Assembly: GCA_963835795.1 (NCBI GenBank)
Contig: CAWIHJ010000015.1
Span: forward strand, 57-64,056
DNA: 64,000 nucleotides
Origin: an uncultured Gammaproteobacteria bacterium
GTDB lineage: Bacteria; Pseudomonadota; Gammaproteobacteria; GCA-001735895
Direction of reading: 5' to 3'
Part shown: positions 1,480 to 61,556 of the stretch, piece by piece
Layout of the letters: the number at the start of each line of letters is the position of its first letter
How positions within the stretch are numbered: position 1 is the stretch's first letter
Notes under the pieces: model-generated
Database searches by the model: none
Told to the model about the DNA's origin: nothing
The model's input: the letters and a program-made list of their open reading frames with translations, nothing else
Translations under genes and position numbers: made by a program

Positions 1480-3091
1480 TCACATCCGGAAAATGCCAAA
1501 CTCGGTGGTTTCGACCGGCGCGTTGAGCGCGGCTGACAAACCAAGCCCAAGCACCAGCCGTGAATCCGCCGGATCGATGATACCGTCATCCCACAGGCGT
1601 GCGGAGGCGTGGTAGGGATGCCCCTGGGCTTCGTACTGTTCGCGTATCGGTTGCTTGAAGTCCGCTTCATCCTGTTCTGCCCAGGACTCACCACGTGCCT
1701 CGATGCCATCGCGTTTGACCTGCGCCAGCACGGTTGCCGCCTGTTCACCCCCCATTACCGAAATGCGCGCATTGGGCCACATCCACAGGAAGCGGCCACC
1801 GTAAGCGCGCCCACACATGGCGTAGTTTCCAGCGCCGAAACTGCCGCCGACCACCAGCGTCAATTTGGGTACGCGTGCGCAGGCAACCGCGGTCACCATT
1901 TTCGCACCATCGCGCGCAATGCCGCGGTGTTCGTATTTCTGACCGACCATGAAGCCGGTGATGTTCTGCAAGAAAATCAACGGGATACGGCGCTTGGCGC
2001 ACAGCTCGACGAAGTGCGCACCCTTTAACGCCGACTCGGAAAACAGGATGCCATTGTTGGCGACTATGCCCACCGGAATCCCGAATATATGTGCAAAGCC
2101 GCAGATCAGCGTGGTGCCATAGAGTTGCTTGAACTCGTCGAACTCGCTGCGCGTCAACCAGGCGCGCGATGATTTCACGGATATCGAAAGGCTTGCGCAG
2201 GCTACTCGGCACGATGCCATAGAGTTCGTCGACGGGGTACCGGGGCTCCAGCGGTTTACGCAAGGCAATGTCAGGCTGCTTGAAACGATTGAGCGTGCCG
2301 ACGATATCGCGCGCCATGCTGAGCGCGTGTTCATCGTCCTGCGCGTAGTGATCGACTACCCCGGAAATGCGCGCGTGGACGTCGGCGCCGCCGAGATCTT
2401 CGGCGCTGACGACTTCCCCGGTGGCCGCTTTCACCAGCGGCGGCCCACCGAGAAATATGGTGCCCTGTTCGCGCACGATGATCGACTGGTCGCACATCGC
2501 CGGCACGTAAGCACCGCCCGCGGTACAGGAACCCATCACCACCGCAATCTGTGGAATACCACGGGCCGACATGTTCGCCTGGTTATAAAAAATGCGGCCG
2601 AAGTGTTCGCGGTCCGGAAACACGTCCTGCTGGCTCGGCAGGTGCGCCCCGCCCGAATCGACCAGGTAAATACAGGGCAGATTGTTCTGCGCCGCGATGT
2701 CCTGCGCACGCAAATGCTTCTTTACCGTGATCGGGTAATAGGTGCCACCTTTCACGGTCGCATCGTTGGCGACGATCATGCATTCCTGGTCGCGGATGCG
2801 GCCGATACCGGCGATCAATCCGCCGGCGGCAATATTATCTTCACCATACATTTCGTAGCCGGCGAACTGGCCGATTTCAAGAAAGGCGGACCCGGGATCG
2901 ATCAGGCGGTTGACGCGATCGCGCGGCAACAGCTTGTCGCGACTCAGGTGTTTGGCGCGTGCACGTTCACCGCCGCCCTCGGCAATGGTGGCAACCTTTG
3001 CATTCAGATCGTCTACCAGCGCCCGCATCGCCTCGCGATTCTGCACAAATTCGGCGTTGCGACTGCTGATTTTTGATTCAATGATACTCAT
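1480..3091 (-). pseudogene. liuB: Methylcrotonyl-CoA carboxylase beta (carboxyltransferase) subunit, split by one +1 frame break near 2155.
   Basis: ORFs 1745..3091(-) and 1480..2334(-) join into one carboxyltransferase: ...[10 protein letters not shown] | [23 protein letters not shown].... Total length is 1612 nt = 3n+1. Confidence 0.85.
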
Positions 3092-4227
3092 CGGCCTGCC
3101 ACCAGTTCGCGTGCAATCACCAGGCGCTGAACATCGCTGGTGCCCTCGTATATCTGCGCCACGCGAACATCGCGCGCAATGCGTTCCAGCGGAAAGTCAC
3201 GCAGGTAACCGTAGCCGCCGAGCACCTGGATTGCGGCGGAACAGATTTTCTCGGCGACTTCCGAGGCGAACAACTTGGCCTGGCTGGCCTGTCGCAAGCA
3301 GGGAACACCCGCATCGCGCAGGCGCGCGGCGTGGTGCACCATCAGACGCGCTGCATCGAGCTGGGTCGCCATGTCGGCGAGCCGAAAGGCAACCGCCTGG
3401 TGCTCGACAATCGGTTTGCCGAAACTGTTGCGCTCACGGGCGTAGGCAAGTGCGCACTCGTAGGCCGCGCGCGCCATGCCGACGCACTGCGCACCGATGC
3501 CGATGCGCCCGCCTTCGAGATTCATCAGGGCAATCTTGTAGCCCTCGCCTTCGCGGCCGATCAAATGGCTCGCTGGCACCACGCAATCGCGCAGAAAAAC
3601 CTGCACCGTATCCGAGGCATGTTGACCCATTTTCTGTTCGGGCGCGCCTGCCTGGTAGCCGGGATTGTCGGTGGGCACGACAAATGCGCTAATCCCTTTC
3701 TTGCCGGCCTCGGCGTCGGTGACCGCGAACACGATCGCAACGTCGGCATTCTTGCCCGAGGTAATAAAAGCCTTGCTGCCGTTTAACACGAACTCGTCGC
3801 CGCGACGCTCGGCGCACGTGCGCAGCGCGGCCGCGTCGGAACCCGCCTGGGGTTCGGTCAGGCAAAAACAACCGAGGCTTGCACCGCTGGCGAGTGGCCG
3901 CAGAAACTGTTCTTTCTGCCAGGCGTCACCCGAGGCCAGCAATACCCCGCAGACCACCGAGTTGTTGACACTCAGAATGGTCGACAACGCACCATCGCCG
4001 GCGGCCACTTCTTCGATGGCGAGCGCAAACGACAGGTAGTCGGCGCCGCTGCCGCCCCATTCCTCGGGCACGAACATGCCAAACAGGCCGAGCTCGGCCA
4101 TCTGCGTCAACTGCTCGCGCGGGAAATGGCTATCGCGATCCCAGCTTGCGGCATGCGGCAGAATTTGCTCGCGCACAAACTCGCGCACCGCGTCGCGGAT
4201 CAGGCTCTGTTCTTCGCTTAAATACAT
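3088..4227 (-). CDS. Acyl-CoA dehydrogenase (short/branched-chain type).
   Basis: ORF 3088..4284(-). The likely start is MYLSEEQ at 4227. ACAD motifs are present: [10 protein letters not shown] and the C-terminal [21 protein letters not shown] overlap with the downstream gene. Confidence 0.85.
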
Positions 4228-4235
4228 GGGTCGTG

Positions 4236-7634: not shown

Positions 7635-10600
7635 ATGAGTAGCGCACCACAAAAGGTGATCAATATTCCATCCGCACAGGCGAATAGCGCCAGGCTCCGC
7701 TTCGTCACCGCCGCCAGCCTGTTCGACGGCCACGACGCGGCGATCAACATCATGCGCCGCATCCTGCAATCCTCGGGCGCCGAGGTCATCCACCTCGGGC
7801 ACAATCGCTCGGTCGCCGAGATCGTCAACGCCGCGGTGCAGGAAGACGTGCACGCCATCGCCCTGAGTTCCTACCAGGGCGGTCACGTCGAGTACCTCAA
7901 GTACATGGTCGACATGCTGCGCGACAAGGGCCGCCCCGATATTCGCGTCTTTGCCGGCGGTGGCGGGGTCATCATACCGGCCGAAATCCGCGAGCTCGAA
8001 GACTACGGCGTAACCCGGATCTATTCGCCCGAAGACGGGCAGAAAATGGGGTTGCAAGGTCTGATCACCGATATGCTGGAGCGCTGCCAGTACGATCCGG
8101 CGGCGAATGCGCCCACTGCACTCGATGCCTTGAACGGGCACGACACCGCGGCGCTCGCCAGCCTGATCAGCGGGCTTGAAAACCAGCGCGTCGATGAAGG
8201 CTTGCGCGAACAGATTCGCAAATTAGCGGCTGAGCGCAAGATTCCCGTGCTCGGTATTACCGGCACCGGTGGTTCGGGCAAGTCGTCGCTAACCGACGAA
8301 GTCATTCGCCGCTTCCGTCTCGACTATGCCGACGAATTGCGCATCGCCATCGTGGCGATCGATCCGACGCGGCGCAAGACCGGCGGATCGCTGCTCGGCG
8401 ACCGTATCCGCATGAATGCGATCGACCACCCCAACATCTATATGCGCTCGCTGGCCACGCGCGATTCGGTTGGCGAAATCCCCGAGGTAGTGAGTGACGT
8501 GATAGCCGCCTGCAAACTCTGTGATTTCGATTTCATCATCATCGAAACGCCCGGCATCGGCCAGGGTGACGCCGCGATTGTGCCGCTGGTGGATGTTTCA
8601 CTGTATGTCATGACGCCGGAATTCGGCGCGCAAAGCCAGCTCGAAAAGATCGACATGCTCGACTTCGCCGACGTGGTCGCGATCAACAAGTTCGACCGCA
8701 AGGGCGCCGAGGACGCCTACCGCGACGTCTGCAAGCAGGTACAGCGCAACCGCGCGGCCTTCTCGAAGCCGATCGACAAGATGCCGGTATTCGGCACCAT
8801 CGCCGCTCGTTTCAATGACGACGGTACGACCGCGCTGTACCAGCAGGTGCAGGCCAGGCTGGAGGATATCGGGCTGGCTGCCAGCAGCGCGCGGCTGCCG
8901 CGCGTCAGCACGCGTAAATCCACCGCGGCGACCGTCATCGTGCCGACCGAGCGCGTGCGTTACCTGGCCGAAATCGCCGGCCACGGTACGCGACTACCAC
9001 CGTCACGCTCGCGAGCAGGTCCAACTGGCGCGCGAACGCCAGCAACTGCTGGAAACACGGCGCATGCTCGGTGAGCAGGATCAGGCCAACCCGACGCTCG
9101 ACACCCTGATAGCCGCGCGTGAGCAGGCCCTCGACAGCGCTTCGCACAAGCTGCTCGAACAATGGCCGGCGATACGCGAGAGCTACTCCGGCGACGAATA
9201 CGTGGTGCACATCCGCGACCGCGAGATTCGCACCGAGCTCAAGTACCAGACGCTGTCCGGTTCGAGTATTCCCAAGGTCTCGCTGCCGGACTACGAAGAT
9301 CACGGCGAGCTGTTGAAGTGGCTGCTGCTGGAAAACCTGCCCGGCAGTTTTCCGTTCACCGCCGGGGTATTCGCGTTCAAGCGCGAAGGCGAAGATCCGA
9401 CGCGCATGTTCGCCGGTGAAGGCGATGCGTTTCGCACCAATCGGCGTTTCAAGGAGCTCTCCGAACACTCCGCCGCCAAACGCCTGTCGACCGCCTTCGA
9501 CTCGGTCACGCTGTACGGCTGCGATCCGGACGAGCGCCCCGACATCTACGGCAAGGTCGGCAATTCCGGCGTGTCGATCGCCACCCTGGATGACATGAAG
9601 GTGCTGTACGACGGCTTCGATCTGTGCAATCCGACCACCTCGGTGTCGATGACCATCAACGGCCCGGCGCCGATCATCCTGGCGATGTACCTGAACACCG
9701 CGATCGACCAGCAGCTGGAACGATTCGACAGCGAGAACGAGCGCGCACCCACCGACGCAGGAGATCGACAAGATTCGCGCCTGGGCGCTGGAAAACATCC
9801 GCGGCACGGTGCAGGCCGATATCCTCAAGGAAGACCAGGGGCAGAACACCTGCATCTTTTCCACCGAGTTTGCGCTCAAGATGATGGGCGATATCCAGCA
9901 GTATTTCATCGATCACCGCATTCGCAACTTTTACTCGGTGTCGATTTCCGGTTACCACATCGCCGAAGCCGGCGCCAACCCGATCTCGCAGCTCGCCTTC
10001 ACCCTCGCCAACGGTTTCACCTTCGTCGAGACCTACCTCGCGCGCGGCATGCACATCGACGACTTTGCGCCCAACCTGTCGTTCTTCTTCAGCAACGGCA
10101 TGGATCCGGAATACACGGTCATGGGCCGCGTCGCGCGGCGCATCTGGGCGACGGCGATGCGCGATCAAGTACGGCGCCAACGAGCGCAGCCAGAAACTCA
10201 AGTATCACATCCAGACTTCCGGCCGCTCGCTGCACGCCCAGGAAATGGATTTCAACGATATCCGCACCACGCTGCAGGCGCTGATCGCCATCTACGACAA
10301 CTGCAACAGCCTGCACACCAACGCCTTCGACGAGGCGATCACCACGCCGACCGACGAATCGGTGCGCCGCGCGCTGGCGATCCAGCTGATCATCAACAAC
10401 GAGTGGGGGCTGGCGAAAAACGAGAACCCCAACCAGGGCGCGTTCATCATCGACGAGCTGACCGACCTGGTCGAAGAAGCGGTGTTGCAGGAATTCGAAC
10501 GCATCTCCGAGCGCGGCGGCGTGCTCGGCGCGATGGAAACCGGCTACCAGCGCGGCAGGATCCAGGACGAGTCGATGCTCTACGAACATCGCAAGCACGA

Positions 10601-10899
10601 CGGCACGCTGCCGATCATCGGGGTCAACACCTTCCTCAACCCGGACGGCAACGCCGATCACGAAATCGAACTGGCGCGCTCCACCGACGAAGAAAAACAG
10701 AGCCAGATCAAGCGCCTGCGTGATTTTCAGGCAAGCCACGCAGGATACCCGGGCGGCGGCACTGGCAGCGGTGCAGCAGGCAGCCATCAACAACGACAAC
10801 ATCTTCGCCGAACTGGTCAACGCGGTGCGCCACTGCTCGCTCGGCGAAATCACCAACGCGCTGTTCGAAGTCGGCGGCCAGTATCGACGCAACATGTAG
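7635..10899 (+). pseudogene. icmF: Fused isobutyryl-CoA mutase IcmF (B12-binding domain + MeaB-like GTPase + mutase domain), interrupted by four +1 frame breaks (~8985, ~9755, ~10155, ~10745).
   Basis: ORFs 7635..9074, 8815..10284, 9809..10723 and 10065..10982 plus a final frame ending [14 protein letters not shown] at 10899 concatenate into one ~1086-aa protein. Motifs: [79 protein letters not shown]. The frames run 0>1>2>0>1. Confidence 0.9.
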
Positions 10900-10940
10900 T
10901 CATAATCCTGCAAAAAAACACCGTACCCAATAAAAAAATC

Positions 10941-10965
10941 GTCATTCCCGCGCAAGCGGGAATCT
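10941..10965 (+). repeat. REP-like palindromic unit GTCATTCCCGCGCAAGCGGGAATCT.
   Basis: Hairpin ATTCCCGC-GCAA-GCGGGAAT in the icmF-hbd spacer. The same GTCATTCCCGCGCA core recurs at 19249 and 19273. Confidence 0.6.
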
Positions 10966-12168: not shown

Positions 12169-14145
12169 ATGGACCAGGCGAGCGATCTCGATACTTTTCC
12201 CAAGCTGCTAGTCAGCCATGTGAAACTGCGCCCGCAAAAAGCGGCGATGCGCGAGAAAGACCTCGGAATCTGGCAATCCTGGAGCTGGGCCGAAGCCGCC
12301 AACGAGATTCGCAGTCTCGCCTGCGGACTGGCAGATCTCGGCCTCAAGCGCGGCGAAAAGCTCGCCATCATCGGTGACAATCGCCCGCGACTCTACTGGG
12401 CGATGACCGCAGCACAAGCGCTTGGCGCCATTCCGGTACCGCTTTACCAGGACGCGGTGGCCGACGAAATGGCTTTTGTGCTCGACAACGCCGATGTCAA
12501 AATTGCCCTTGCCGAAAACCAGGAACAGGTCGACAAGCTGCTCGAAATCCACGCGCGCTGCCCCAGCCTCGAACACATTATTTTCGACGACACCCGCGGT
12601 CTCGGATCCTACCAACACGATTTCCTGCACGACTTCGACCAGGTGCAGCGTGCCGGTGTTGAATTCGATCGCCAGCATGCAGGCTTCTACGACACGGAAG
12701 TCGCGGCCGGTTACGGCAAAGAAATATCGATCATGCTGTACACCTCGGGCACGACCGGCAAGCCCAAGGGCGTGATGCTGAGCAACGACAACGTGATCAT
12801 CACCGCGCGCAACGGCATCGTCCGTGAAGGCCTCGGCGCCGATGAAGAAGTACTCGCTTACCTGCCGATGGCCTGGGTGGGCGACAACCTGTTTTCCTAT
12901 GCACAATCCTATGTCGCCGGGTTTTGCGTCAGCTGTCCGGAAAGCGCTGCCACGGTGGCCAATGATCTGCGCGAGATTGGCCCTACCTATTATTTCGCCC
13001 CGCCGAGCATTTACGAAAACATGCTGACCCAGGTGATGATTCGCATGGAAGACGCAGCACCGATCAAGCGCCGCATGTTCCACTACTTCATGGAGCACGC
13101 GCGCCGGGTGGGTGTGCGCATTCTGAACCGCGAAACGGTCTCGCTCAAGGACTCGCTGATATACCAGCTGGGCAACATTCTCGTCTACGGACCCCTCAAG
13201 GACGTGCTCGGCCTGCGCCGCACGCACCTGGCCTACACCGCCGGCGAAGCCATCGGCCCGGATATCTTCGATTTCTATCGCTCGCTCGGCATCAACATCA
13301 AGCAACTCTACGGCCAGACCGAATGCATGGTGTTTATCTGCGTGCAACCGGACGGTGAGGTCTACGCCGATACCGTGGGCACGCCGGCCATCGATGTCGA
13401 AATCAGGATCGACGACAACGGCGAAATCATGTATCGCAGCCCCGGTGTGTTTCAGTCTTATTACAAGAACCCCGAATCCACCGCCAGCACCAAGACCGAA
13501 GACGGCTGGGTGCATACCGGCGATGCCGGTTTTTTCGACGACAGCAACGGCCATCTGAAGATCATCGATCGCGCCAAGGACGTCGGCAAACTGAACGACG
13601 GCACCCTGTTTGCGCCCAAGTACATCGAAAACAAGCTCAAGTTTTTCTCCTTCATCAAGGAAGCCGTGGTGTTCGGCAACGAGCGCGATTTCAGCACCGC
13701 GTTCATCAACATCGATCTCGACGCGGTCGGCAACTGGGCCGAACGCCGCAACCTCGCCTACTCCGGCTACATCGATCTCGCCGGTCAGGCGGCGGTCTAC
13801 GACTTGATCAAGGACTGCGTCGACAAGGTCAACCAGGATCTTTCGCAGGATTCGCGCCTCGCCAATTCGCAGATTCGACGCTTTCTGATCCTGCACAAGG
13901 AGCTCGACGCCGACGACGGCGAGCTGACCCGTACGCGCAAGGTACGCCGCAGTTTTGTCGGTGAACGCTTCGCCAAACTGGTCGACGCGCTCTACTCCGA
14001 GCAGCGCGAGTGTCACATTGAAACCGAGGTGACCTTCGAGGACGGGCGCACCGGGAAGCTTGCGGCCAACGTGCGCATCTGCGATGCCGAGGTGTATGCG
14101 CCAGACGCGCAACAATCCGCGCAACCGAGGGATGCCGCCGCATGA
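12169..14145 (+). CDS. AMP-dependent acyl-CoA synthetase/ligase (long-chain-fatty-acid-CoA ligase-like), first gene of the ligase-ABC-ligase module.
   Basis: 658-aa intact ORF with the AMP-binding motif LYTSGTTGKPKGVMLS and WVHTGDAGFFD...LKIIDRAKD. 4-nt overlap with the following ABC ATPase gene. Confidence 0.85.
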   Translation: MDQASDLDTFPKLLVSHVKLRPQKAAMREKDLGIWQSWSWAEAANEIRSLACGLADLGLKRGEKLAIIGDNRPRLYWAMTAAQALGAIPVPLYQDAVADEMAFVLDNADVKIALAENQEQVDKLLEIHARCPSLEHIIFDDTRGLGSYQHDFLHDFDQVQRAGVEFDRQHAGFYDTEVAAGYGKEISIMLYTSGTTGKPKGVMLSNDNVIITARNGIVREGLGADEEVLAYLPMAWVGDNLFSYAQSYVAGFCVSCPESAATVANDLREIGPTYYFAPPSIYENMLTQVMIRMEDAAPIKRRMFHYFMEHARRVGVRILNRETVSLKDSLIYQLGNILVYGPLKDVLGLRRTHLAYTAGEAIGPDIFDFYRSLGINIKQLYGQTECMVFICVQPDGEVYADTVGTPAIDVEIRIDDNGEIMYRSPGVFQSYYKNPESTASTKTEDGWVHTGDAGFFDDSNGHLKIIDRAKDVGKLNDGTLFAPKYIENKLKFFSFIKEAVVFGNERDFSTAFINIDLDAVGNWAERRNLAYSGYIDLAGQAAVYDLIKDCVDKVNQDLSQDSRLANSQIRRFLILHKELDADDGELTRTRKVRRSFVGERFAKLVDALYSEQRECHIETEVTFEDGRTGKLAANVRICDAEVYAPDAQQSAQPRDAAA

Positions 14146-14943
14146 GCGAACGCAACATCGGCGACGTCATTCTCAAGGTGGACAACATCAGCCTGTCGTT
14201 TGGCGTGATGAAAGTGCTCGACGACATCAGCTTCGACGTACGCCAGGGTGAAATTCGCTCGATCATCGGACCCAACGGCGCCGGCAAGAGCTCGATGCTG
14301 AACGTGCATCAACGGCTTTTATCATCCGCAGCAGGGCATCGATTACCTTCAAGGGCGAGACCCGCAAGCAGATGGCGCCGCACGCGCCGCAAGCCAGGGC
14401 ATCGCGCGCACCTTCCAGAACATCGCGCTGTTCAAGGGCATGAGCACGCTCGACAACATCATGACCGGGCGCAACCTGAAGATGAAGACCAACCTGTTCT
14501 GGCAGGCCCTGCACATCGGTCCGGCGCGCGCGCGAGGAACTGGAAAATCGCGAGGCGGCGGAACGATCATCGACTTTCTCGAGATCCAGGCGATCCGCAA
14601 AAAACCGGTCGGGCAAACTGCCCTACGGCCTGCAAAAACGCGTCGAACTCGGCCGCGCACTCGCCGCCGAGCCGGAACTGCTGTTGCTCGACGAGCCCAT
14701 GGCGGGGATGAACTCGGAGGAAAAGGAGGACATGTGCCGCTTCATCCTCGACGTCAACGACGAGTTCGGCACCACCATCGCGCTGATCGAGCACGACATG
14801 GGCGTGGTGATGGACCTGTCCGACCGGGTGCTGGTGCTCGACTACGGCAAGCAACTGGCCGACGACTACCCGGACGAGGTGCGCAGCAACCAGACGTCAT
14901 CGACGCCTATCTCGGAGTCCCGCATGAAGAGGTGACCGGCTAA
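14142..14943 (+). pseudogene. livG: LivG-type ABC transporter ATP-binding protein, with about seven frame changes.
   Basis: Conserved segments lie in alternating frames: GPNGAGKSSMLNV | INGFYHPQQG | SITFKGETRKQMAPHA | SQGIARTFQNIALF...HIGPAR | REELENREAAE | IIDFLEIQAIRKKPVG | KLPYGLQKRVELGRALAAEPELLLLDEPMAGMN...IEHDM... | DVIDAYLGVPHEEVTG*. Breaks are near 14307, 14338, 14385, 14530, 14565, 14612 and 14892. Confidence 0.85.
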
Positions 14944-15836
14944 TGCTGTTCTTTATCGAAGTCGTGCTGAGCGGCCTGATGGCCGGCGTCATGTATTCGC
15001 TGGTCGCGCTCGGCTTCGTGCTGATCTTCAAGGCCTCGGGCATCTTCAATTTCGCCCAGGGCGTGATGGCGCTGTTCGCCGCGCTGACCCTGGTCGGCCT
15101 GATGGAAAAGTTCGACTTCCCGGTATGGCTGGCCATCATCGGCACCATCGCGGTGATGATTGCACTCGCCTGGCTGATCGAACGCCTGATGCTGCGCCAC
15201 CTGGTCAACCAGGAACCGATCATCCTGTTCATGGCCACCATCGGCCTCGCCTACGTGCTCGAAGGCATCGGCGACATCCTGTGGGGTTCGGACGTCAAAC
15301 TGCTCGACATCGGCATTCCCCAGGGCGCCTGGGACTGGCTGTGGGATCAGGGCATCTACGTCGAGAAACTGGAGCTGTTCGCCGCTGGCACCGCCGCCAT
15401 CCTGGTCACCGTTCTCGCCATTTTCTTCCAGAAAACGCGCATCGGTCGCGCGCTGCGCGCGGTGGCCGACGATCACCAGGCGGCGCTGTCGGTGGGCATC
15501 TCGCTGAACACCATCTGGGTCATCGTCTGGTCGGTGTCCGGTATCGTCGCGCTGGTCGCCGGCATCATGTGGGGCAGCAAGTCCGGGGTGCAGTTCTCGC
15601 TGTCGCTGATCGCGCTGAAGGCCCTGCCGGTGCTGATCCTCGGCGGCTTCACCTCGGTGCCGGGGGCGATCATCGGCGGCATCATCATCGGCGTCGGCGA
15701 AAAACTGGCCGAGGTCTACCTCGGGCCGCTGGTCGGCGGCGCGATCGAGAACTGGTTTGCCTACATGCTGGCGCTCGCCTTCCTGCTGTTCCGACCGCAG
15801 GGTTTGTTCGGCGAAAAGATCATCGAACGAGTATGA
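14943..15836 (+). CDS. livH: LivH-type branched-chain/HAAT-family ABC permease.
   Basis: 297-aa intact, multi-TM ORF with typical LivH motifs (GIFNFAQG, ALKALPVLILGGFTSVPGAIIGG). Confidence 0.85.
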   Translation: MLFFIEVVLSGLMAGVMYSLVALGFVLIFKASGIFNFAQGVMALFAALTLVGLMEKFDFPVWLAIIGTIAVMIALAWLIERLMLRHLVNQEPIILFMATIGLAYVLEGIGDILWGSDVKLLDIGIPQGAWDWLWDQGIYVEKLELFAAGTAAILVTVLAIFFQKTRIGRALRAVADDHQAALSVGISLNTIWVIVWSVSGIVALVAGIMWGSKSGVQFSLSLIALKALPVLILGGFTSVPGAIIGGIIIGVGEKLAEVYLGPLVGGAIENWFAYMLALAFLLFRPQGLFGEKIIERV

Positions 15837-15850: not shown

Positions 15851-16930
15851 ATGATTTATCGCGAAACCGGACAATTCAAGACCAGCTACCAGGCCGACCA
15901 GGCGCTGTTTCCGATCGCCCAGGATCGTATCGTTATCCTCGGCGTGCTGATTGTCACCTTTGTCGTCATCCCCTCGTTGTTAAACGAGTACTGGCTGAAC
16001 GCCATCCTGCTGCCCTTCCTGATCTACTCGCTGGCGGCACTCGGACTGAACATTCTGACCGGCTACTGCGGCCAGGTGTCGCTCGGCACCGGCGGCTTCA
16101 TGGCCGTCGGCGCCTACTCGGCATACAAGTTGATGATCGCCTTTCCCGAACTGGGCATTCATTCCACTGGTGCTTGATTTCCGGGGTGATCACCGCCGCC
16201 GTCGGCATCCTGTTCGGTTTGCCGTCGCTGCGCATCAAGGGCTTTTACCTCGCGGTCGCCACCCTGGCGGCGCAGTTCTTCCTGATCTGGTTGTTCAACA
16301 AGGTCGGCTGGTTTTACAACTACAACGCGTCCGGCATGATCAACTCGCCGCCGCTGACCCTGTTCGGCGTGATCGTCACCGGCCCCGAAGGCGACATGAC
16401 CGCCAAGTACTACATGGTCGCGGCCTTCGTGGCGGTGTTTGCGCTGCGCCGCGAAAAACATTGTGCGCGGGCGCATCGGCCGCAACTGGATGGCGATTCG
16501 CGACATGGACATCGCCGCCGAATTGATCGGCGTGCGCCCACTGATCGCCAAGCTGTCGGCGTTCGCGGTGTCGTCGTTTTACATCGGCATGGCCGGCGCG
16601 CTGTATTTCGCCGTCTGGCTGGGTTCCGCCGAACCCACCGAGGCCTTCGACATCAACCAGTCGTTCCTGGTGCTGTTCATGATCATCATCGGCGGCCTCG
16701 GCTCGGTGCTGGGTTCTTTCCTCGGCGCGGCATTTCTGGTGTTGATGCCGATCCTGTTGAAGAATATCATGGTCGACGGCTTCGGCACCGATGCCGCGCT
16801 CGCCACGCACATCGAAATCATCATCATTGGTGTGTTGATCATCTGTTTTCTGATCGTCGAACCGCACGGGCTTGCGCGCCTGTGGCGGATCGCCAAGGAG
16901 AAACTGCGCCTGTGGCCATTCCCGCACTAG
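15851..16930 (+). pseudogene. livM: LivM-type ABC permease with three +1 frame breaks (~16160, ~16177, ~16448).
   Basis: Three pieces concatenate: 15851..16177 (LNILTGYCGQVSLGTGGFMAVGAYS), a middle frame (ISGVITAAVGILFGLPSLRIKGFYLAVATLAAQFF) and 16439..16930 (GRNWMAIRDMDIAAELIGV...). Total length is 3n, consistent with three +1 events. Confidence 0.8.
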
Positions 16931-16998
16931 GGCATATACGCCTGCAGACGCTAATTGCGAATGTTAAAACAGTCACTATAACTGGAGGAAGAAGAGAA

Positions 16999-18338
16999 AT
17001 GAATATTAAAAAACTGACAAGAACCGCTCGCGGCGGCGCTGCTGGCGCTGCCGCTGCTCAGCGGCGTGGCCAGCGCTTACGAACTGGTCATTCCGTCGTT
17101 CGACTACCGGACCGGGCCCTACGCACCGAACGGCATCCCCTTCGCCAATGGCTTCGGCGATTACATGCAGATGCTCAACGAGCGCGACGGCGGCATCAAC
17201 GGTGCCAGAATCAGCCTGGTGCCCTGCGAAACGGCCTACAACACCAAGCATGGCGTCGAGTGCTACGAAAACACCAAGAACGAAGGTCGAATCCGGCGCG
17301 CTGGTTTTCCAGCCGCTGTCCACCGGTATCACCTACCAGCTGATTCCGAAGGCCAGCGTCGACGAGATCCCGATCTTCTCGATGGGCTACGGCCGCACCT
17401 CGGCCGCCAACGGCAAGGTTTTCCCGTGGGTGTTCAACTTCCCGACCACCTACTGGAGCCAGGCCACCGTGTTCGTCAAGTACATCGGCGAGCAGGAAGG
17501 CGGTATGGACAAGCTCAAGGGCAAGAAAATCGCGCTGGTTTACCACAACTCGGCCTACGGCAAGGAACCGATCCGCACGCTGGAAAAGGCCGCGGAAAAG
17601 TTTGGCTTCGAATTCCTGCGCTGCCGGTCGACCACCCGGGCCAGGAACAGAAATCGACCTGGCTGCAGAGTCCGCAAGGAACGTCCCGACTGGGTGCTGA
17701 TGTGGGGCTGGGGTGTCATGAACCAGGTCGCCATCAAGGAAGCCGCTTCGATTCGCTTCCCGATGGATCATTTCATCGGTGTCTGGTGGTCGGGCTCTGA
17801 AAACGACGTGCTGCCTGCCGGCGATGCGGCACATGGCTACCTGTCCGGCGCTTTCCACCAGCCCGGCAGCAATTTCCCGGCACACGCCGACATCCGCAAG
17901 CACGTCTACGACAAGGGCATGGGGCTTGGCGATCGCGATCGCATCGGTGAGGTGCTCTACAATCGCGGGCTGGTCGCGGCGATGTGGACCAGCGAAGCGA
18001 TTCGCAAGGCGATGGAAATCCACGGCACCAATGAAGTCAACGGCAAAATGGTGCGCGATGGCTTCGAAGCGCTCGATGTCGACGAAGCGCGCCTGAAAGA
18101 GCTGGGTCTGCCGAACTTTACCATTCCGGTCAAGATCACCTGTGAAAATCACGAGGGCCCTGGCCAGGTAGCGCTGCAACAGTGGGACGCCAAGGCGAAG
18201 AAGTGGACCCTGGTGAGCGATTTCTACGAGCCGATGCGCGATATTACCGGACCGCTGATCGAGGAAGACTCGGCGCAGTACGCCAAGGAAAACAACATCA
18301 CGCCGCGCGATCTGCTAGGTATTGGCACTGACACCTGA
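16999..18338 (+). pseudogene. livK: LivK-type periplasmic substrate-binding protein with four frame breaks (~17027, ~17285, ~17618, ~17670).
   Basis: Pieces in different frames: MNIKKLT... | LAAALLALPLLSGVASAYELVIPSFDYRTGPYAPNG... | ESGALVFQPLSTGITYQ... | ALPVDHPGQEQKSTWLQ | VRKERPDWVLMWGWGVMNQ.... Signal peptide is present. The RBS GGAGGAAGAAGAG lies upstream of the ATG at 16999. Confidence 0.8.
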
Positions 18339-18444
18339 TAGCAGCCTGGAACGTGAGCGACGCAGACCACGATCGGACTGAGCAGCCGAAGCAACGCTGC
18401 TGTCGGTCAACAATATCGAGGTTATTTACGATCACGTCATCCTG

Positions 18445-19191
18445 GTGTTGAAGGGCGTGTCGTTTGAAGTACCCGAGCAGGGCATTGTTGCCCTGCTCGG
18501 TGCCAACGGCGCGGGTAAGACCACCACGCTGAAGGCGATTTCCAACCTGCTGCGCGCCGAGCGCGGCGACATCACCAAGGGCAGCATCGAATTCGAGGGC
18601 AAGCGCATCGACCGCATGACCCCGGCACATCTGGTGCAACAGGGCGTCATCCAGGTCATGGAAGGCCGCCATTGCTTCGAACATCTCACGGTCGAGGAAA
18701 ACCTGCTTACCGGCGCCTATACCCGGCGCGATGGCGGCGCCGCAATTCAGCGTGACCTGGAACTGGTGTATGGCTATTTCCCACGCCTGAAAAGCCGTAG
18801 CCGCGCACAGGCGGGGTACACCTCGGGCGGCGAACAGCAAATGATCGCCATCGGCCGCGCGCTGATGTCGAAACCGAAAATGATCTTGCTCGACGAACCG
18901 TCGATGGGACTCGCGCCGCAGCTGGTGGAAGAAATATTCGAAATCGTCGCGCGCCTGAACCAGGACCAGGGCGTCACGTTCCTGCTCGCCGAGCAGAACA
19001 CCAACATCGCGCTGCGCTATGCCAATCACGGTTACATCCTCGAAAATGGCCGCGTGGTGCTCGACGGCAGCGCCGCCGAACTGCGCGAAAATACCGACGT
19101 CAAGGAATTCTATCTCGGCATCAGCGAGGGCGAGCGCATCAACTTTCGCGACGTCAAACACTACCGCCGGCGCAAGCGCTGGCTCACCTGA
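18445..19191 (+). CDS. livF: LivF-type ABC transporter ATP-binding protein. The true N-terminus probably lies upstream and appears frameshifted.
   Basis: 248-aa ORF with Walker A GANGAGKTTT, signature SGGEQQM, Walker B ILLDEPSMGLAP. The in-frame upstream peptide LLSVNNIEVIYDHVILV (from ~18388) is the expected first beta-strand but has no start codon. A GTG at 18353 (MSDADHDRTEQPKQ) is in a different frame, implying a -1 break near 18390. Confidence 0.75.
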   Translation: MLKGVSFEVPEQGIVALLGANGAGKTTTLKAISNLLRAERGDITKGSIEFEGKRIDRMTPAHLVQQGVIQVMEGRHCFEHLTVEENLLTGAYTRRDGGAAIQRDLELVYGYFPRLKSRSRAQAGYTSGGEQQMIAIGRALMSKPKMILLDEPSMGLAPQLVEEIFEIVARLNQDQGVTFLLAEQNTNIALRYANHGYILENGRVVLDGSAAELRENTDVKEFYLGISEGERINFRDVKHYRRRKRWLT

Positions 19192-26430: not shown

Positions 26431-27217
26431 TCATTCGAATTCGGGCTTGCGCTTGTCGAAGAATGCCTGGATTCCTTCGCGCCCGTCGGGCGAGGCCGCG
26501 CAGCGTGACAACAGCTGCCCTTCGAGTTCCATCTGCGCCTCGAGATCGTTGCCGGCGCTCGCCAGCAACAGCTTGCGCACGTAGGCGTGCGACAGCCGCG
26601 CACCGTCGGCGAGTTCTGCCGCCAGGCGATCGGTTTCCGCCTGCAGCTCGGCATCCGCCACCACCCGGGTAACAATGCCGATTTCACAGGCCTCGGCGGC
26701 ACTCAGCGTTCGGTTGCTCAACATCAGTTCCTGCGCCCGACGCAGACCAACCAGCCGCGGCAGGTAATAGCTGGAGGCGCCATCCGGGCACAGACCGGCG
26801 CGGGTATAGGCCATGGTGAAGCTGGCCGACTCGGCGGCGAGCACGATATCGCCGATCAGCGAGAAACTGAAACCACCACCTGCGGCGACCCCGTTTACCG
26901 CGACAATCAATAGCGCCTGCATGCGCGACAGGCTCGTGATCGCGGCGTGAAAGTCGTCGGCGAGCGCCTGCGCCGCGTCACCGATGGCATCGCCGTGTGC
27001 CAGCATTTCCCGGAGATCGCCACCGGCGCAGAAGAATCGGCCCTCGGGCGCTGAGCACCACTACCTTGATCTGCGGGTCGTCATCGCATTGCCGCGCCGC
27101 CCGTTTCAACTCGCTGGCCGTTTGGCTGTTCAGGCCATTGGCCGCCTCGGGCCGGTGCAGGGTAATGCGCGCGATCGCGCCCTGCTGTTCAAAAATAATG
27201 CATTCGAATTCGTTCAT
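26431..27217 (-). pseudogene. Enoyl-CoA hydratase/isomerase family protein with one +1 break (~27047, in a G3/C3 run).
   Basis: ORFs 26978..27268(-) and 26431..27006(-) join: MNEFECIIFEQQGAIARITLHRPEAANGL...VVVLSA | GRFFCAGGDLREMLAHG...VNGVAAGGGFSF... Confidence 0.8.
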
Positions 27218-27298
27218 GGCTGTGGCACGCTTACCGCATCGTTGAATTTTGAATAGTGCATAATACACAACCCCTCACGCCTGTTACAGGAGCGAATC

Positions 27299-36416: not shown

Positions 36417-36455
36417 CCTGCATTTCTCTTACTGGTTTTGACACATCCGCGTCAC

Positions 36456-45535: not shown

Positions 45536-47196
45536 TTGAACCATCCCGAGCGCGTCGACTACCAGACCAGCCCCGATCTCTACCGTCACTGGCAGCTTGA
45601 AGTGGACGGCCCGATCGCCACCCTGTGGCGCCGACTTTGACGAGGATGCCGGCCTGCGGCCGGGTTACAAGCTCAAGTTGAACAGCTACGACCTGGGCGT
45701 CGATATCGAACTCAACGACGCCATCAACCGCATTCGTTTCGAGCACCCGCAGGTGCGCTGTGTGGTCATCACCAGCCTCAAGGACAAGGTATTTTGCTCC
45801 GGCGCCAATATTTTCATGCTGGGCGTCAGCAGCCACGCCTGGAAGGTCAACTTCTGCAAGTTTACCAACGAGACGCGCAACGGGCTGGAAGATTCCTCGC
45901 GCCACGACGGCCTCAAGTTTGTCGCCGCGGTCAACGGCGCCTGCGCCGGCGGTGGCTACGAGCTGGCGCTGGCCTGCGACCGCATCATCCTGGTGGACGA
46001 TCGCTCGAGCGCCGTGAGCCTGCCCGAAGTGCCCTTGCTCGGCGTCTTGCCCGGCACCGGCGGCCTGACGCGGGTAACCGACAAACGCCACGTGCGTCAC
46101 GACCTCGCGGATATCTTCTGCACCACCAGCGAAGGCGTACGCGGGCAGAGAGCGAAGGACTGGCGCCTGGTCGACGACATCGCCAAACCGGCACAATTTA
46201 AAGACGCCGTGCAACAGTGCGCAGCGAGCCTCGCCGAGCACAGCGATCGCCCGCCAGGCGCCAGCGGCGTCAAGCTCACCCCGCTTGAGCGCAGCATCGA
46301 GGACGATGCCCTGCGCTACCGCCACGTCCGCGTCGAAATGGATCGCGCAAATCGCACCGCCAGCTTTATCGTCACCGCCCCCGGCGGCGAACAACCGCAG
46401 GACATCGACTCGATCGAGCAGGCCGGCGCGGACTGGTTTCCGCTCGCGCTCGCGCGCGAACTCGACGATGCGATCCTGTCGATGCGCACCAACGAACTCG
46501 AACTCGGCACCTGGATCATCCGCACCGAAGGTGATGCGGCGGCGGTTTTGCAGATGGACGACAGCCTGATCGCGCATCGCGAACACTGGCTGGTGCGCGC
46601 CACTATCGGTTATTTACGTCGCAGCCTGGCTCGGCTCGACGTCTCGGCGCGCAGCCTGTTCGCGCTGATCGACGAGGGCTCGTGTTTTGCCGGCAGCTTC
46701 CTGGAACTGGCGCTGGCCTGCGATCGCAGCTACCAGCTCGCGCTACCTGACGATCCTGACGCGGCGCCGCACATCACGCTGGGCGAGGCCAATTTCGGCC
46801 TGCTGCCGATGGTCACCGACGAGAGCCGCCTGGAACGACGCTTCTATCACGAAACCAGACCGACTGCATGCCGCACGCGATCACCTGTTGCAGGCGCTGG
46901 ACGCCGATGCCGCCTTTGAACTCGGCCTGGTGACCAGTAATCCGGACGATCTCGACTGGGATGACGAGGTGCGCATCGCCATCGAGGAACGCGCTGCGAT
47001 GTCACCCGACGCGCTCACCGGCATGGAGGCCAACCTGCGTTTCAACGGCCGCGAAAACATGGTGACGCGTATCTTCGGGCGCCTCACCGCCTGGCAAAAC
47101 TGGATATTCCAGCGACCCAACGCGGTGGGCGAGCACGGCGCATTAAAAGTCTATGGCAGCGGCGAGAAATCACGTTTCGACTGGGACCGGGTTTAA
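45536..47196 (+). pseudogene. boxC: Benzoyl-CoA-dihydrodiol lyase / 2,3-epoxybenzoyl-CoA dihydrolase BoxC with two +1 breaks (~45626, ~46857).
   Basis: The TTG at 45536 is preceded by GGAG. Concatenation: LNHPERVDYQTSPDLYRHWQLEVDGPIATL | ADFDEDAGLRPGYKLKLNSYDLGVDIELNDAINRIRFEHPQV...GGGYELALACDRI... | DRLHAARDHLLQALDADAAFELGLVT...ALKVYGSGEKSRFDWDRV*. Confidence 0.85.
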
Positions 47197-50990: not shown

Positions 50991-51435
50991 ATGAAATTCA
51001 AAGATTTCCACGACGGGCAAATCATCGAACTCGGACCGTACCGCGTCGACCAGGACGAAATGATCGAGTTCGCCAGGGACTGGGATCCGCAATGGTTTCA
51101 CACCGATCCGCAAGCCGCCGAGCAGGGACCTTTTGAGGGCCTGATCGGCAGTGGCTGGCTACAGTTGCGGAATCGCCATGCGCCTGGTCGCCGATCATAT
51201 ACTGGCCGGCTCGGAATCGTTCGCCTCACCCGGTCTCAAGTATCTGAAATGGCTGCATCCGGTGCGTCCCGGCGATAGCCTGTCGCTGCGCCTGACGGTG
51301 CTCGAAGTGCGCCGCTCGAGCAAGCGCCCGCAGCTTGGCATTATCGAATGGCGCTGGCAGTTGCATAATCAGCAGGACATCGACGTGCTCGAACTCGAAG
51401 TCACCAGCATGTTTAATCTTCAGGCGGAACACTGA
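50991..51435 (+). pseudogene. MaoC-like (R-specific) hydratase / hotdog protein with one +1 break (~51157).
   Basis: ORF 50991..51278 and ORF 51151..51435 join: ...DWDPQWFHTDPQAAEQGPFEGLIGSGW | YSCGIAMRLVADHIL...WLHPVRPGDSL... Confidence 0.75.
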
Positions 51436-59779: not shown

Positions 59780-60829
59780 ATGTCACTGACCGAAAAGCCT
59801 GTTGAAACGCCCGAACGCCTGGCCTTCTATGAAAAGATCGATCGGCTAGCCTATACCCCGCTGTGGACAGTGTTCGCCGACATCGTCACCCCGCAACCGC
59901 AAAGCCGTTGCCGTGCTCACCTGTGGCATTTCGACCAGGCGCGTGAATGGTTGCTGGAAGCGGGCGAGCTGATTACCGCCGCGGAAGCCGAACGGCGCGT
60001 GCTGATCCTGGAAAATCCCGGCATGCGCGGTGAATCGAAGATTACCACTTCGTTGTACGCGGGGCTGCAACTGGTGATGCCGGGCGAAGTGGCGCCGGCT
60101 CACCGGCATAGCCAGAGCGCGTTGCGTTTCGTCCTCGATGGCGCAGGTGCGCACACCAGCGTCGACGGTGAACGCACGCGCATGGAATTTGGCGATTTCG
60201 TGATTACGCCGCCCTGGGCCTGGCACGACCACGGTAACGACAGCGAACAACCGATGATCTGGCTGGACGGACTCGATATTCCCATGGCCAGTTTCTACGA
60301 TGCTTCGTTTGCCGAAGGTTACGAAGCCGCTGAATATCCACTATCGCGACCCGCAGGCGACAGCCTCGCGCGCTACGGCGCCAACATGCTACCGGTCGAC
60401 TACCAACCGCAGAACCAGGCTTCACCGATTTTCAATTACCCCTACGCGCGTGCACGCGAAGCGCTCGATGCGATGCAGGCCGGACAGGACTGGGATGCCT
60501 GCCACGGCCTCAAGATGCGCTATACCAATCCGCTCGACGGCAGTTCGGCGATGCCAACCATCTCGGCCTTTCTGCAACTACTGCCGGCCGGCTTCGAGAC
60601 ACTCCCCTATCGCAGTTCCGACGCCACCGTGTTCGTCGCCACCGAGGGTAATGGCCGCAGCACCATCGACGGCGAGGTTTTCGAATGGGGGCCACGCGAT
60701 ATCCTGGTGGCGCCGAGCTGGAAGTGGATACGGCACGAAACCAGCAGTGATGCCGTGCTATTCAGCTATTCCGATCGCATTGCGCAACAGAAGCTGGGAT
60801 TCTGGCGCGAGCAGCGCAGCAATACCTGA
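59780..60829 (+). CDS. Gentisate 1,2-dioxygenase.
   Basis: ORF 59675..60829. Start MSLTEKPVETPERLAFYEK at 59780 after AAGGAG. Bicupin with the motif AHRHSQSALRFVLDG...WHDHGN. Confidence 0.9.
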   Translation: MSLTEKPVETPERLAFYEKIDRLAYTPLWTVFADIVTPQPQSRCRAHLWHFDQAREWLLEAGELITAAEAERRVLILENPGMRGESKITTSLYAGLQLVMPGEVAPAHRHSQSALRFVLDGAGAHTSVDGERTRMEFGDFVITPPWAWHDHGNDSEQPMIWLDGLDIPMASFYDASFAEGYEAAEYPLSRPAGDSLARYGANMLPVDYQPQNQASPIFNYPYARAREALDAMQAGQDWDACHGLKMRYTNPLDGSSAMPTISAFLQLLPAGFETLPYRSSDATVFVATEGNGRSTIDGEVFEWGPRDILVAPSWKWIRHETSSDAVLFSYSDRIAQQKLGFWREQRSNT

Positions 60830-60849
60830 TTCAACTACGGAGATTGGCC

Positions 60850-61556
60850 ATGACCGAGTACGTTCTCGAACCCCCCACCACCGCCTCGATTGCCGTCACG
60901 AATTCCGCCGCGCGTTTCCCGGTGCGCCGGATTTTTTGCGTGGGACGCAACTACGCCGCACACGCGCGTGAAATGGGCAAGGATCCGGACCGCGAACCAC
61001 CGTTTTTCTTCACCAAACCGGCCGATGCCGTGGTCGACGATAACGCCGTGGTGGCTTATCCGCCGCTCACCAATAATTTACACTACGAGGCCGAGCTGGT
61101 GGTGGCGATGGGCAGCGGTGGTGTCAATATCGACGAGCAGGACGCACTCGATCACGTCTTTGGATATGCCATCGGCAATGAATTGACGCGCCGCGACCTG
61201 CAACTCGCCGCGCGCGATCATCGGGCGGCCCTGGGACTGGGGCAAGGCTTTCGACCATTCGGCGGTGTGCGGGCCGGTGCATCCGCTTTCCGAGGTTGGG
61301 CACCTGCAGCGGGGATTGATCCGGCTGAGCGGTCAACGGCGAGACCCGCCAGCAGGCCGACCTGCAGGATATGATCTGGAGCATCCCGGAGCAGATCGCC
61401 ATCCTTTCACGCAGCATGACGATCAAACCCGGCGATCTGATTTACAGCGGCACGCCGGCCGGAGTTGGGCCGCTGTTGCCGGGTGACGTTTGCGTGGTAG
61501 AGATCGCGGGTCTCGGGCAACTCACCACGCGCATCGGTGAGCGCGCACCGCTATGA
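60850..61556 (+). pseudogene. FAH-family hydrolase (fumarylpyruvate/maleylpyruvate hydrolase-like) with two +1 breaks (~61221, ~61331).
   Basis: Three frames concatenate: ...RIFCVGRNYAAHAREMG...YEAELVVAMG...LTRRDLQLAARD | GRPWDWGKAFDHSAVCGPVHPL...LIRLS | VNGETRQQADLQDMIWSIPEQIAILSRSMTIKPGDLIYSGTPAGVGPL... Confidence 0.8.

What the first reader, a model, noticed from the sequence alone, without database searches (positions are those of the whole stretch)
1480..61556. About 34 reading-frame breaks in 13 conserved genes, strongly clustered and biased about 3:1 towards +1 shifts
By stitching conserved peptide segments across frames I count the following breaks. MCC-beta has 1 (~2155). icmF has 4 (~8985, 9755, 10155, 10745). 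The livG-like gene has 7. The livM-like gene has 3 (~16160, 16177, 16448). The binding-protein gene has 4 (~17027, 17285, 17618, 17670). The livF-like gene probably has 1 (~18390). The PaaK-like ligase has 3 (~19560, 20008, 20372). The crotonase has 1 (~27047). The two phnE genes have 2 (~34260, 34800). The hydrolase has 3 (~36068, 36125, 36250). boxC has 2 (~45626, 46857). The maoC-like gene has 1 (~51157). The FAH hydrolase has 2 (~61221, 61331). By frame bookkeeping, 26 behave as +1 (a single inserted base or a 2-nt loss) and 8 as -1. Most are not in long homopolymers. In every case the conserved protein sequence continues unbroken in the new frame, and catalytic motifs are intact. I saw no accompanying nonsense codons in the conserved frames. 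This argues for assembly or consensus indels, for example residual long-read insertion errors, or else for extremely recent inactivation. The distribution is not uniform. More than 40 kb of genes have no break, including 2-kb and 2.4-kb ORFs and a complete second Liv set. Meanwhile 18 breaks fall between 14.1 and 20.6 kb. Every product call for these genes depends on resolving this.
Basis: partly seen in the sequence, partly recalled or inferred. Interest (0 to 1): 0.6.

Follow-up and report, generated by a model that had tools for sequence, protein, structure and literature searches.

The report
Assembly-error frameshifts, not broken genes
The roughly 34 single-base frame breaks are really in the deposited sequence, but they are almost certainly consensus errors of this metagenome-assembled genome, so the 13 "broken" genes should be read as intact.

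Summary
Alignment to same-genus genomes finds 34 window-specific frame-breaking indels in 13 genes. There are 27 one-base insertions and 7 one-base deletions, at almost exactly the listed coordinates, and 18 lie between 14.1 and 20.6 kb. Only the livF break was not found; the nearest break is at about 18310, at the end of the binding-protein gene.

They are not biology. A genome-wide scan gives 971 frame switches, an estimated 1,200 after correction, with the same 3:1 insertion bias and the same clustering. The rate is about tenfold that of relatives. Essential single-copy genes are hit: rpoC is in 7 pieces in this assembly only, and rpoB, rpoA, secY, rplF and rpsC are also split. With the frame shifts aligned out, the window genes show no in-frame stops and dN/dS of 0.09-0.19, like their intact neighbours. 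Illumina contigs from independent sediment samples (95-98% identical) show the frame-restoring state at all 6 indel sites they span.

About 70% of the insertions look like both alleles of a variable site written in tandem, against 27% for simulated random insertions. That points to a consensus built from a mixed population. The assembly's own reads could not be found. Verdict: artefact, low interest.

The parts
1480..3091 (-). Methylcrotonyl-CoA carboxylase beta-like carboxyltransferase gene, with one spurious 1-base insertion at about 2150.
   Evidence: 5 relatives lack the base. (intact orthologue matches Pfam Carboxyl_trans, 1.3e-152). (no in-frame stops, dN/dS 0.094).
7635..10899 (+). icmF-like fused B12-binding / MeaB GTPase / acyl-CoA mutase gene, with four 1-base insertions at 8980, 9758, 10165 and 10743.
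   Evidence: 11-12 relatives lack each base. (90-95% identical metagenome contigs lack a base at 8978, 9757 and about 10160-10169). (Pfam MM_CoA_mutase, MeaB, B12-binding).
14142..14931 (+). livG-like ABC ATPase gene, with 4 insertions (14306, 14338, 14532, 14610) and 3 deletions (14384, 14565, 14894).
   Evidence: projected onto the G004 orthologue it is 93.9% identical in protein, dN/dS 0.096, no in-frame stops.
14943..15836 (+). livH-like permease gene, intact. It serves as an internal control inside the densest cluster.
   Evidence: one frame over 301 aa, 94% identical to the G006 orthologue..
15851..16930 (+). livM-like permease gene, with insertions at 16156, 16173 and 16447.
   Evidence: (Pfam BPD_transp_2 in the intact orthologue).
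16964..18338 (+). Periplasmic binding-protein gene, with insertions at 17027, 17289, 17669 and about 18310, and a deletion at 17619.
   Evidence: (Pfam Peripla_BP_6). The 18310 event shifts only the last few codons.
18355..19191 (+). livF-like ABC ATPase gene, intact. The break suspected at about 18390 is not present.
   Evidence: a single tblastn segment in one frame, 278-285 aa, 87-92% identity.
19357..20599 (+). PaaK-like acyl-CoA ligase gene, with a deletion at 19560 and insertions at 19999 and 20376.
   Evidence: (Pfam AMP-binding, AMP-binding_C_2).
26431..27268 (-). Enoyl-CoA hydratase (crotonase) gene, with an insertion at 27039.
   Evidence: Pfam ECH_1, 5.5e-56.
33940..35558 (+). Two phnE-like permease genes, with an insertion at 34261 and a deletion at 34803.
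   Evidence: 6 relatives.
35590..36493 (+). Alpha/beta hydrolase gene, with insertions at 36063 and 36249 and a deletion at 36124.
   Evidence: Pfam BD-FAE / Abhydrolase_3; an Illumina contig of run X1 leaves out one base at 36059 and another has an extra T after 36125, which is the frame-restoring state at two of the three sites.
45597..47196 (+). boxC-like (crotonase-fold) gene, with insertions at 45628 and 46852.
   Evidence: the Illumina contig of run X22 (45529-45736) leaves out one base at 45629.
50991..51435 (+). MaoC-like dehydratase gene, with an insertion at 51160.
   Evidence: 5 relatives.
60844..61556 (+). Fumarylacetoacetate-hydrolase-family gene, with two +1 shifts at about 61235 and about 61329.
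   Evidence: relatives' proteins match frames 1, 2, 3 in succession. (HMM calls at 61231 and 61328). (Pfam FAA_hydrolase).

Best explanation
The frame breaks are errors in the consensus sequence of this metagenome-assembled genome, not mutations carried by the organism. I put this at 0.95 or higher. The 13 genes are functional in the real population and should be annotated from the frame-restored reading.

The most likely way the errors arose, at about 0.6 given that they are artefacts, is as follows. The contigs were called from reads, or merged contigs, of several co-occurring close strains or species. At sites where these differ, the consensus often kept both alleles one after the other, giving a +1 insertion. 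Less often it kept neither, giving a -1 deletion.

This would explain the 3:1 insertion excess. It would explain why inserted bases avoid homopolymers, because two different alleles are different bases by definition. It would also explain the clustering, if errors arise only where heterogeneous reads were collapsed. The accessory stretches of the window, which have no counterpart in relatives, have no frame switches.

Shown: the indels are specific to this assembly, occur genome-wide, hit essential genes, show no relaxed selection, and are absent from independent reads. Inferred: the collapsed-variant mechanism, and the sequencing and assembly method.
For: 1. Specific to this assembly. All 34 indels are absent from every aligned same-genus genome, and those genomes have single intact ORFs.

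2. Genome-wide. A frame HMM, validated on the window (24 of 31 known sites found; sensitivity 0.72), frame switches in 3.78 Mb. That is 25.7 per 100 kb, against 2.35 per 100 kb in 468 kb of relatives' DNA. Insertion-like to deletion-like is 738:233, the window's ratio. The variance-to-mean ratio in 5-kb bins is 2.9.

3. Essential single-copy genes are hit. rpoC is in 7 pieces on contig C49 of this assembly, with no second copy. It is one open frame of 1404-1432 aa in every same-genus and same-class genome that holds it whole, 11 in all (three further genomes hold only contig-cut pieces, each one open frame). rpoB, rpoA, secY, rplF and rpsC are also split. rpoB and rpoC together carry 18 assembly-specific indels.

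4. No decay signature. Projected onto the G004 orthologues' codons, the broken genes have 0 in-frame stops and dN/dS of 0.09-0.19, the same range as intact neighbours. livG, with 7 indels, is the best-conserved protein in the window at 93.9%.

5. Independent reads. Illumina (Nextera, about 151-nt) contigs from sediment runs of one study, 95-98% identical to the assembly, span 6 indel sites and show the frame-restoring state at all 6. These are C49 34701, 35776 and 37468 and window 36059, 36125 and 45629. In coding sequence, these were the only indel differences the tool listed.

6. Two-allele signature. For 17 of 24 window insertions and 10 of 14 rpoB/rpoC insertions, the inserted base equals an alternative allele that relatives carry at the adjacent column. 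Examples are GT[GC] where relatives have GTC or GTG, and [CG]AA where relatives have GAG or CAG. The expectation from 259 simulated random insertions put through the same pipeline is 27%. The combined P is 1e-8.

7. The mutation spectrum is unlike known bacterial indels. Here there is an insertion excess and homopolymer avoidance, 7 of 38 against a 44% null, P = 0.001. That real bacterial indels favour deletions and homopolymer runs is established knowledge, not tested here.
Against: - The assembly's own reads were not found. The best public runs hold at most 17% of the window's 31-mers, and no Nanopore or PacBio run was listed. There is therefore no direct per-base support table.
- The Illumina contigs that contradict the indels are 95-98% identical, so they may come from sister strains and not the assembled one.
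- For the sub-mechanism: about 30% of insertions are not two-allele doublets, and the deletions are too few to test.
- The rise of error density with local G+C is not predicted by the model. It goes from about 0.5 to about 3 per 5 kb between 50-54% and 60-63% G+C after correcting for detection power. It may reflect core versus accessory DNA or coverage bias.
- Pieces near indels are only marginally more divergent from Illumina contigs than pieces elsewhere, 2.6% against 1.7%, P = 0.08.
Confidence: 0.9

Rival explanations
1. The breaks are still an artefact, but a plain one: random residual read errors of a long-read platform, left where coverage was low or short-read polishing failed. Strain mixture plays no role.
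For: Insertion-dominated, non-homopolymer errors and patchy distribution are what an incompletely polished long-read assembly can give (general knowledge; frameshifts from indels in long-read assemblies: bioRxiv 10.1101/2021.08.23.457338, PMC9262707). Density rises with G+C, as expected if G+C-biased short-read coverage limited polishing. The only near-identical short-read data found are low-depth Nextera libraries.
Against: Random insertions put through the same alignment pipeline give the two-allele pattern in 27% of cases. The observed rate is 71% in two independent regions, P = 1e-8. Random insertions should also duplicate a neighbouring base 44% of the time, against 18% observed. Nanopore consensus errors are mainly in homopolymers (PMC9262707), which is not seen here.
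Confidence: 0.3
2. The indels are real. This strain has very recently lost the Liv-type transporter, icmF, the PaaK-like ligase, boxC and the other genes through a burst of single-base indels.
For: The indels are in the deposited sequence. The source reads could not be inspected. The contradicting Illumina contigs are 95-98% identical and could belong to sister strains.
Against: The same lesions break rpoC six or more times, and also rpoB, rpoA, secY and ribosomal protein genes, with no second copy. No cell could carry that. There are no in-frame stops and dN/dS is unchanged. With 7 indels in 800 bp of livG, an ordinary indel-to-substitution ratio would imply dozens of substitutions, yet livG is the best-conserved protein in the window. 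An insertion excess and homopolymer avoidance are the opposite of known bacterial indel spectra (established knowledge). About 1,200 events are estimated genome-wide.
Confidence: 0.03
3. The shifts are decoded, by programmed ribosomal frameshifting, quadruplet decoding or transcript editing, so the genes are expressed despite the breaks.
For: Most events are +1. Protein similarity continues in the new frame without stops.
Against: There is no shared sequence motif at the sites. A quarter of events are -1, 7 of 34 in the window and 233 of 971 genome-wide, which quadruplet decoding cannot rescue. None of the sites is conserved in any same-genus genome. Up to 7 shifts fall in one 800-bp gene.
Confidence: 0.005

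Closest known systems
Spurious frameshifts or false pseudogenes caused by indel errors in long-read or poorly polished (meta)genome assemblies. This is the problem addressed by the IDEEL test and by frameshift-correction tools (bioRxiv 10.1101/2021.08.23.457338; PMC9262707).
   Same: Single-base indels split otherwise conserved genes. Protein similarity continues in the new frame. The effect is genome-wide, hits essential genes, and is absent from relatives and from accurate short reads.
   Different: The classic Nanopore case is dominated by homopolymer errors (PMC9262707). Here homopolymers are avoided, insertions outnumber deletions 3:1, and most insertions look like two alleles in tandem. 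The sequencing platform of this assembly is unknown.
Chimeric population consensus in MAGs from strain-heterogeneous communities (polymorphic-site rate used as a proxy for chimeric population genomes: PMC8012365, PMC9262707).
   Same: The errors concentrate at sites that vary among close relatives and in DNA shared with relatives. The accessory stretches of the window have none.
   Different: The cited papers discuss fragmentation and chimerism. I found no paper that describes the both-alleles-in-tandem insertion signature, so that mechanism is my inference.
Genuine pseudogene-rich genomes undergoing reductive evolution, such as Mycobacterium leprae or recent host-restricted symbionts (from general knowledge, not tested here).
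   Same: Many genes are interrupted by frameshifts.
   Different: In real decay, essential genes are spared. Nonsense codons, larger deletions and raised dN/dS accompany the frameshifts, and deletions and homopolymer slippage dominate. None of this holds here.
Programmed +1 frameshifting, as in prfB (general knowledge).
   Same: A +1 shift with the protein continuing in the new frame.
   Different: Programmed sites are single, carry a conserved motif and are conserved across relatives. These are many, have no motif, go in both directions, and are unique to one assembly.

Membership tests
Assembly or consensus indel artefact | The indel is absent from orthologous DNA of all close relatives, which have intact ORFs. 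| tested here: met
   every one of the 34 events is window-specific against 2-12 same-genus genomes.
Assembly or consensus indel artefact | The same error type occurs across the whole assembly at a rate far above comparable genomes. | tested here: met
   25.7 against 2.35 frame switches per 100 kb, with the same 3:1 bias. An estimated 1,200 events after correction.
Assembly or consensus indel artefact | Essential single-copy genes are also broken. | tested here: met
   rpoC in 7 pieces; rpoB, rpoA, secY, rplF and rpsC split; no second copy; intact in relatives.
Assembly or consensus indel artefact | Accurate reads of the same population contradict the indel. | tested here: inconclusive
   6 of 6 spanned sites show the frame-restoring state, but the contigs are 95-98% identical and come from other samples.
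Collapsed-variant (mixed-population) consensus error | Insertions sit at variable sites and consist of two alternative alleles in tandem, more often than random insertions do. | tested here: met
   27 of 38 against 10.2 expected, P = 1e-8.
Collapsed-variant (mixed-population) consensus error | The source reads are polymorphic at the error sites. | not testable with these tools
   The source run is not available.
Genuine pseudogenes (genome decay) | Relaxed selection, shown by in-frame stops and raised dN/dS in the broken genes. | tested here: not met
   0 in-frame stops; dN/dS 0.09-0.19, as in intact neighbours.
Genuine pseudogenes (genome decay) | Essential genes are spared. | tested here: not met
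Programmed frameshift or recoding | A conserved shift site and motif shared with relatives. | tested here: not met
   no relative has any of the shifts, there is no common motif, and both +1 and -1 occur.
Phase-variable (slipped-strand) contingency loci | The indel lies in a homopolymer or short tandem repeat. | tested here: not met
   only 4 of 24 inserted bases match a neighbouring base (null 44%). Only three sites (14532, 19999, 20376) lie in short GC-dinucleotide runs.

The most novel reading that the evidence does not exclude
The indels are real DNA features of a natural population. Single-base 'two-allele' insertions would be created at mismatches during recombination between co-occurring strains. 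They would be tolerated, even in rpoC, through some large-scale frame-correcting decoding.
Probability: 0.01. Interest if true: 0.9.

Novelty: not a real feature. Interest (0 to 1): 0.08.

Why it matters
There is no new biology here, but there are practical consequences.

- This assembly appears to be the genome held for its species in the reference collection used here. It carries an estimated 1,200 false frameshifts.
- Gene callers will report hundreds of split or truncated genes and false pseudogenes. Pathway reconstructions will wrongly score functions as lost. In this window those are branched-chain amino-acid-type uptake, icmF, the PaaK-like ligase, the box pathway and phosphonate permeases.
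- Completeness estimates (79%) may be depressed.
- Every 'broken gene' finding from this genome should be discounted unless accurate reads confirm it.
- The two-alleles-in-tandem signature is a cheap, read-free diagnostic. It could flag consensus errors caused by collapsed strains in other assemblies.

Tried and rejected
1. Finding the assembly's reads. Four run searches gave at most 0.17 of sampled words and no Nanopore or PacBio run.

I did not try that stretch by any other route.

3. At 97-98% likeness, no contig spanned a window indel site. A close-up of 9690-10240 showed only short conserved fragments of other organisms that stop at the sites. Lowering the threshold to 95-96% gave the six informative sites.

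4. A sequence motif at the sites, such as GCGC or CG context that might suggest methylation-linked errors. About a third of sites have GCGC nearby, by eye, which is not clearly above the background of a 60% G+C genome. I did not pursue it.

5. Correlation with position in the contig or with contig length: weak or absent.

6. Whether Illumina contigs are more divergent near indels: 2.6% against 1.7%, P = 0.08, inconclusive.

7. Pairwise codon alignments to G004 over-call gap pairs in diverged genes such as 49820-50956 and 20622-21459. Those genes are intact ORFs in the window, so I treated these as alignment noise.

8. Apparent events at 39126, 42389, 42421 and 19192 lie at gene junctions or in spacers and were not counted.


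Full report
**What the window is.** The window is bases 57-64056 of contig C15 of a metagenome-assembled genome. The assembly has 129 contigs, 3.78 Mb and 57% G+C, and is rated 79% complete and 3.8% contaminated. Eighteen same-genus genomes are held, and the closest are 78-84% identical in DNA and largely syntenic. Contig C45 of G004 follows the window from end to end. Public runs that share words with the window are marine and sediment metagenomes.

**Checking the observation.** In the relatives, the region 14.1-20.6 kb holds six intact genes of about 275, 300, 360, 450, 287 and 425 codons.
- tblastn with those proteins shows the window's livG, livM, binding-protein and PaaK-like genes changing frame repeatedly, while livH and livF read in one frame.
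- Nucleotide alignments of the whole window against 2-12 relatives, with tblastn for the FAH gene, give 27 window-specific one-base insertions and 7 one-base deletions inside 13 genes.
- The one claim not reproduced is the 'probable' livF break. The nearest event is an extra base about three codons before the stop of the binding-protein gene, at about 18310.
- Eighteen of the 34 events lie in 6.5 kb (P = 6e-10).
The phnE and MaoC orthologues were not scanned.

**Is it local or genome-wide?** I trained a dicodon frame model on the assembly's long ORFs and ran a seven-state Viterbi decoder.
- A frame switch was called when coding signal passed from one frame to another on the same strand with no stop codon at the junction.
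- On the window it recovered 24 of 31 then-known sites plus the two FAH sites. Simulated indels give a sensitivity of 0.72.
- Across the assembly it switches, or 25.7 per 100 kb. In 468 kb of relatives' DNA the rate is 2.35 per 100 kb. Corrected for sensitivity and false positives, that is roughly 1,200 events.
- Insertion-like to deletion-like is 738:233, the same 3:1 as in the window.
- Counts in 5-kb bins are strongly over-dispersed. The variance-to-mean ratio is 2.9, with 338 empty bins against 200 expected and 48 bins holding 5 or more against 6 expected.
- The window's peculiarities are therefore properties of the whole assembly. Earlier notes of this scan on other windows of the same genome describe the same thing. 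I treated them as leads and tested the claim independently.

**Essential genes.**
- E. coli ribosomal, RNA polymerase and Sec proteins, searched against the assembly, show frame changes in rpoC (six or more), rpoB, rpoA, secY, rplF and rpsC. All are on contig C49, and there are no second copies.
- The same RpoC query finds one open frame of 1404-1432 aa in the 11 same-genus and same-class genomes that hold the gene whole, and seven pieces only in this assembly.
- Alignment with six same-genus rpoB-rpoC loci pins down 14 one-base insertions, one two-base insertion and three deletions specific to this assembly.
- A cell cannot live with such an rpoC. At least these events must be errors, and they are indistinguishable in kind from those in the window.

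**No sign of decay.** I projected the window onto the codons of the G004 orthologues.
- The broken genes have no in-frame stop codon, and their dN/dS values are 0.09-0.19, the same range as the unbroken neighbours.
- livG, with seven indels in 800 bp, is 93.9% identical in protein, the highest value in the window.
- If seven neutral indels had accumulated there, ordinary indel-to-substitution ratios would predict dozens of substitutions, and stop codons across the cluster. That expectation rests on established knowledge and is an inference.

**Independent reads.**
- No run holds the window fully, and none was listed under Nanopore or PacBio.
- Four low-depth Illumina runs of one sediment study carry Nextera adaptor tails and contigs of about 151 nt. 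They hold the same species at 95-100% identity and depth 2-8.
- At thresholds of 95-96%, their contigs span six indel sites.
  - They leave out one base at C49 34701, 35776 and 37468, which correspond to the assembly-specific insertions at 34700, 35776 and 37467.
  - They leave out one base at window 36059 and 45629, which correspond to the insertions at 36063 and 45628.
  - They carry an extra T after 36125, which corresponds to the deletion at 36124.
- All six show the frame-restoring state. The other indel differences the tool listed in those contigs lie in spacers: 33033, a C-run just upstream of a start codon at 44875, and upstream of rpoB.
- More distant contigs, 90-95% identical, also lack the extra base at 8978, 9757 and about 10160-10169.
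- These contigs are not from the assembly's own sample, so this is strong but not final evidence.

**How the errors probably arose.**
- The inserted bases avoid homopolymers. Only 4 of 24 match a neighbouring base, against 44% for simulated insertions.
- Inspection showed a recurring pattern. The window has two bases where relatives have one variable column, and the two bases are the alleles seen among relatives.
  - GT[GC] where relatives have GTC or GTG (14306).
  - GG[CA] where relatives have GGA or GGC (14338, 16156).
  - [CG]AA where relatives have GAG or CAG (17289).
  - [AG]TC where relatives have ATT or GTT (17669).
- I scored this formally. An insertion counts if the inserted base equals an alternative allele present in relatives at the adjacent column. 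The window gives 17 of 24. A null of 259 random insertions placed in intact genes and realigned the same way gives 27%, or 16-37% depending on the number of relatives. The window P is 5e-6.
- The independent rpoB-rpoC region gives 10 of 14. The combined P is 1e-8.
- Neither random read errors nor real mutations should prefer variable sites and alternative alleles. A consensus built from reads or contigs of several close strains can do so, by threading through both alleles, which gives an insertion, or through neither, which gives a deletion.
- This reading also fits the clustering. The 14.5 kb of the window without counterparts in relatives, including the low-G+C stretch at 28-32 kb, has no frame switch at all.
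- The mechanism is inferred. I found no paper that describes this exact signature. The general link between microdiversity and chimeric population genomes is documented (PMC8012365, PMC9262707), as is frameshifting by indel errors in long-read assemblies (bioRxiv 10.1101/2021.08.23.457338).

**What remains unexplained.**
- Error density rises about six-fold from 50-54% to 60-63% G+C, even after correcting for detection power.
- Some G+C-rich stretches of the window, at 46-48 and 52-54 kb, are nearly clean.
- Possible causes are core versus accessory DNA, G+C-biased short-read polishing, or a platform effect. None could be tested without the reads.

**Verdict.** The feature is an artefact and has no biological novelty. 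Its practical importance is as a warning about this assembly's annotation.

Noticed in passing
window 5442, 10899-10993, 14928, 19252, 52639 (spacers): At these intergenic positions several relatives carry extra 40-190-bp elements built around a palindrome of the type CATCCCCGCG(C/T)AAGCGGGGAT. These look like REP- or MITE-like repeats, and the window lacks them at these sites.
   Followed up: no
window 28000-32000: A lower-G+C stretch (50-55%) with an 823-aa ORF at 28251-30722 and no counterpart in the twelve same-genus genomes whose syntenic loci were compared. It looks like an accessory island and has no frame switches.
   Followed up: partly
window 44871-44875: A C5 run a few bases upstream of the minus-strand ATG, next to a GGAG-type ribosome-binding site, of the gene ending at 43305. 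One Illumina contig has C6 here, so this looks like a genuine spacer length polymorphism.
   Followed up: partly
G000 contig C49, 247-892: Seven HMM frame switches fall within about 650 bp at the contig end, the densest patch seen. Contig C49, which holds the ribosomal protein and RNA polymerase operons, has 60 switches per 100 kb.
   Followed up: no
whole assembly (5-kb bins): Frame-switch density rises steeply with local G+C and CpG content (Spearman 0.33 and 0.37). It is unrelated to contig length and barely related to distance from the contig end. Detection power explains only a small part of the rise.
   Followed up: partly
runs X6 and X7: These two runs give identical numbers in every table, so they are apparently one data set filed under two studies.
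   Followed up: no
window 33033: A 2-base length difference in the spacer between the ORF ending at 32995 and the gene starting at 33104. It is seen in one Illumina contig but not in another, so it looks like a strain polymorphism.
   Followed up: no
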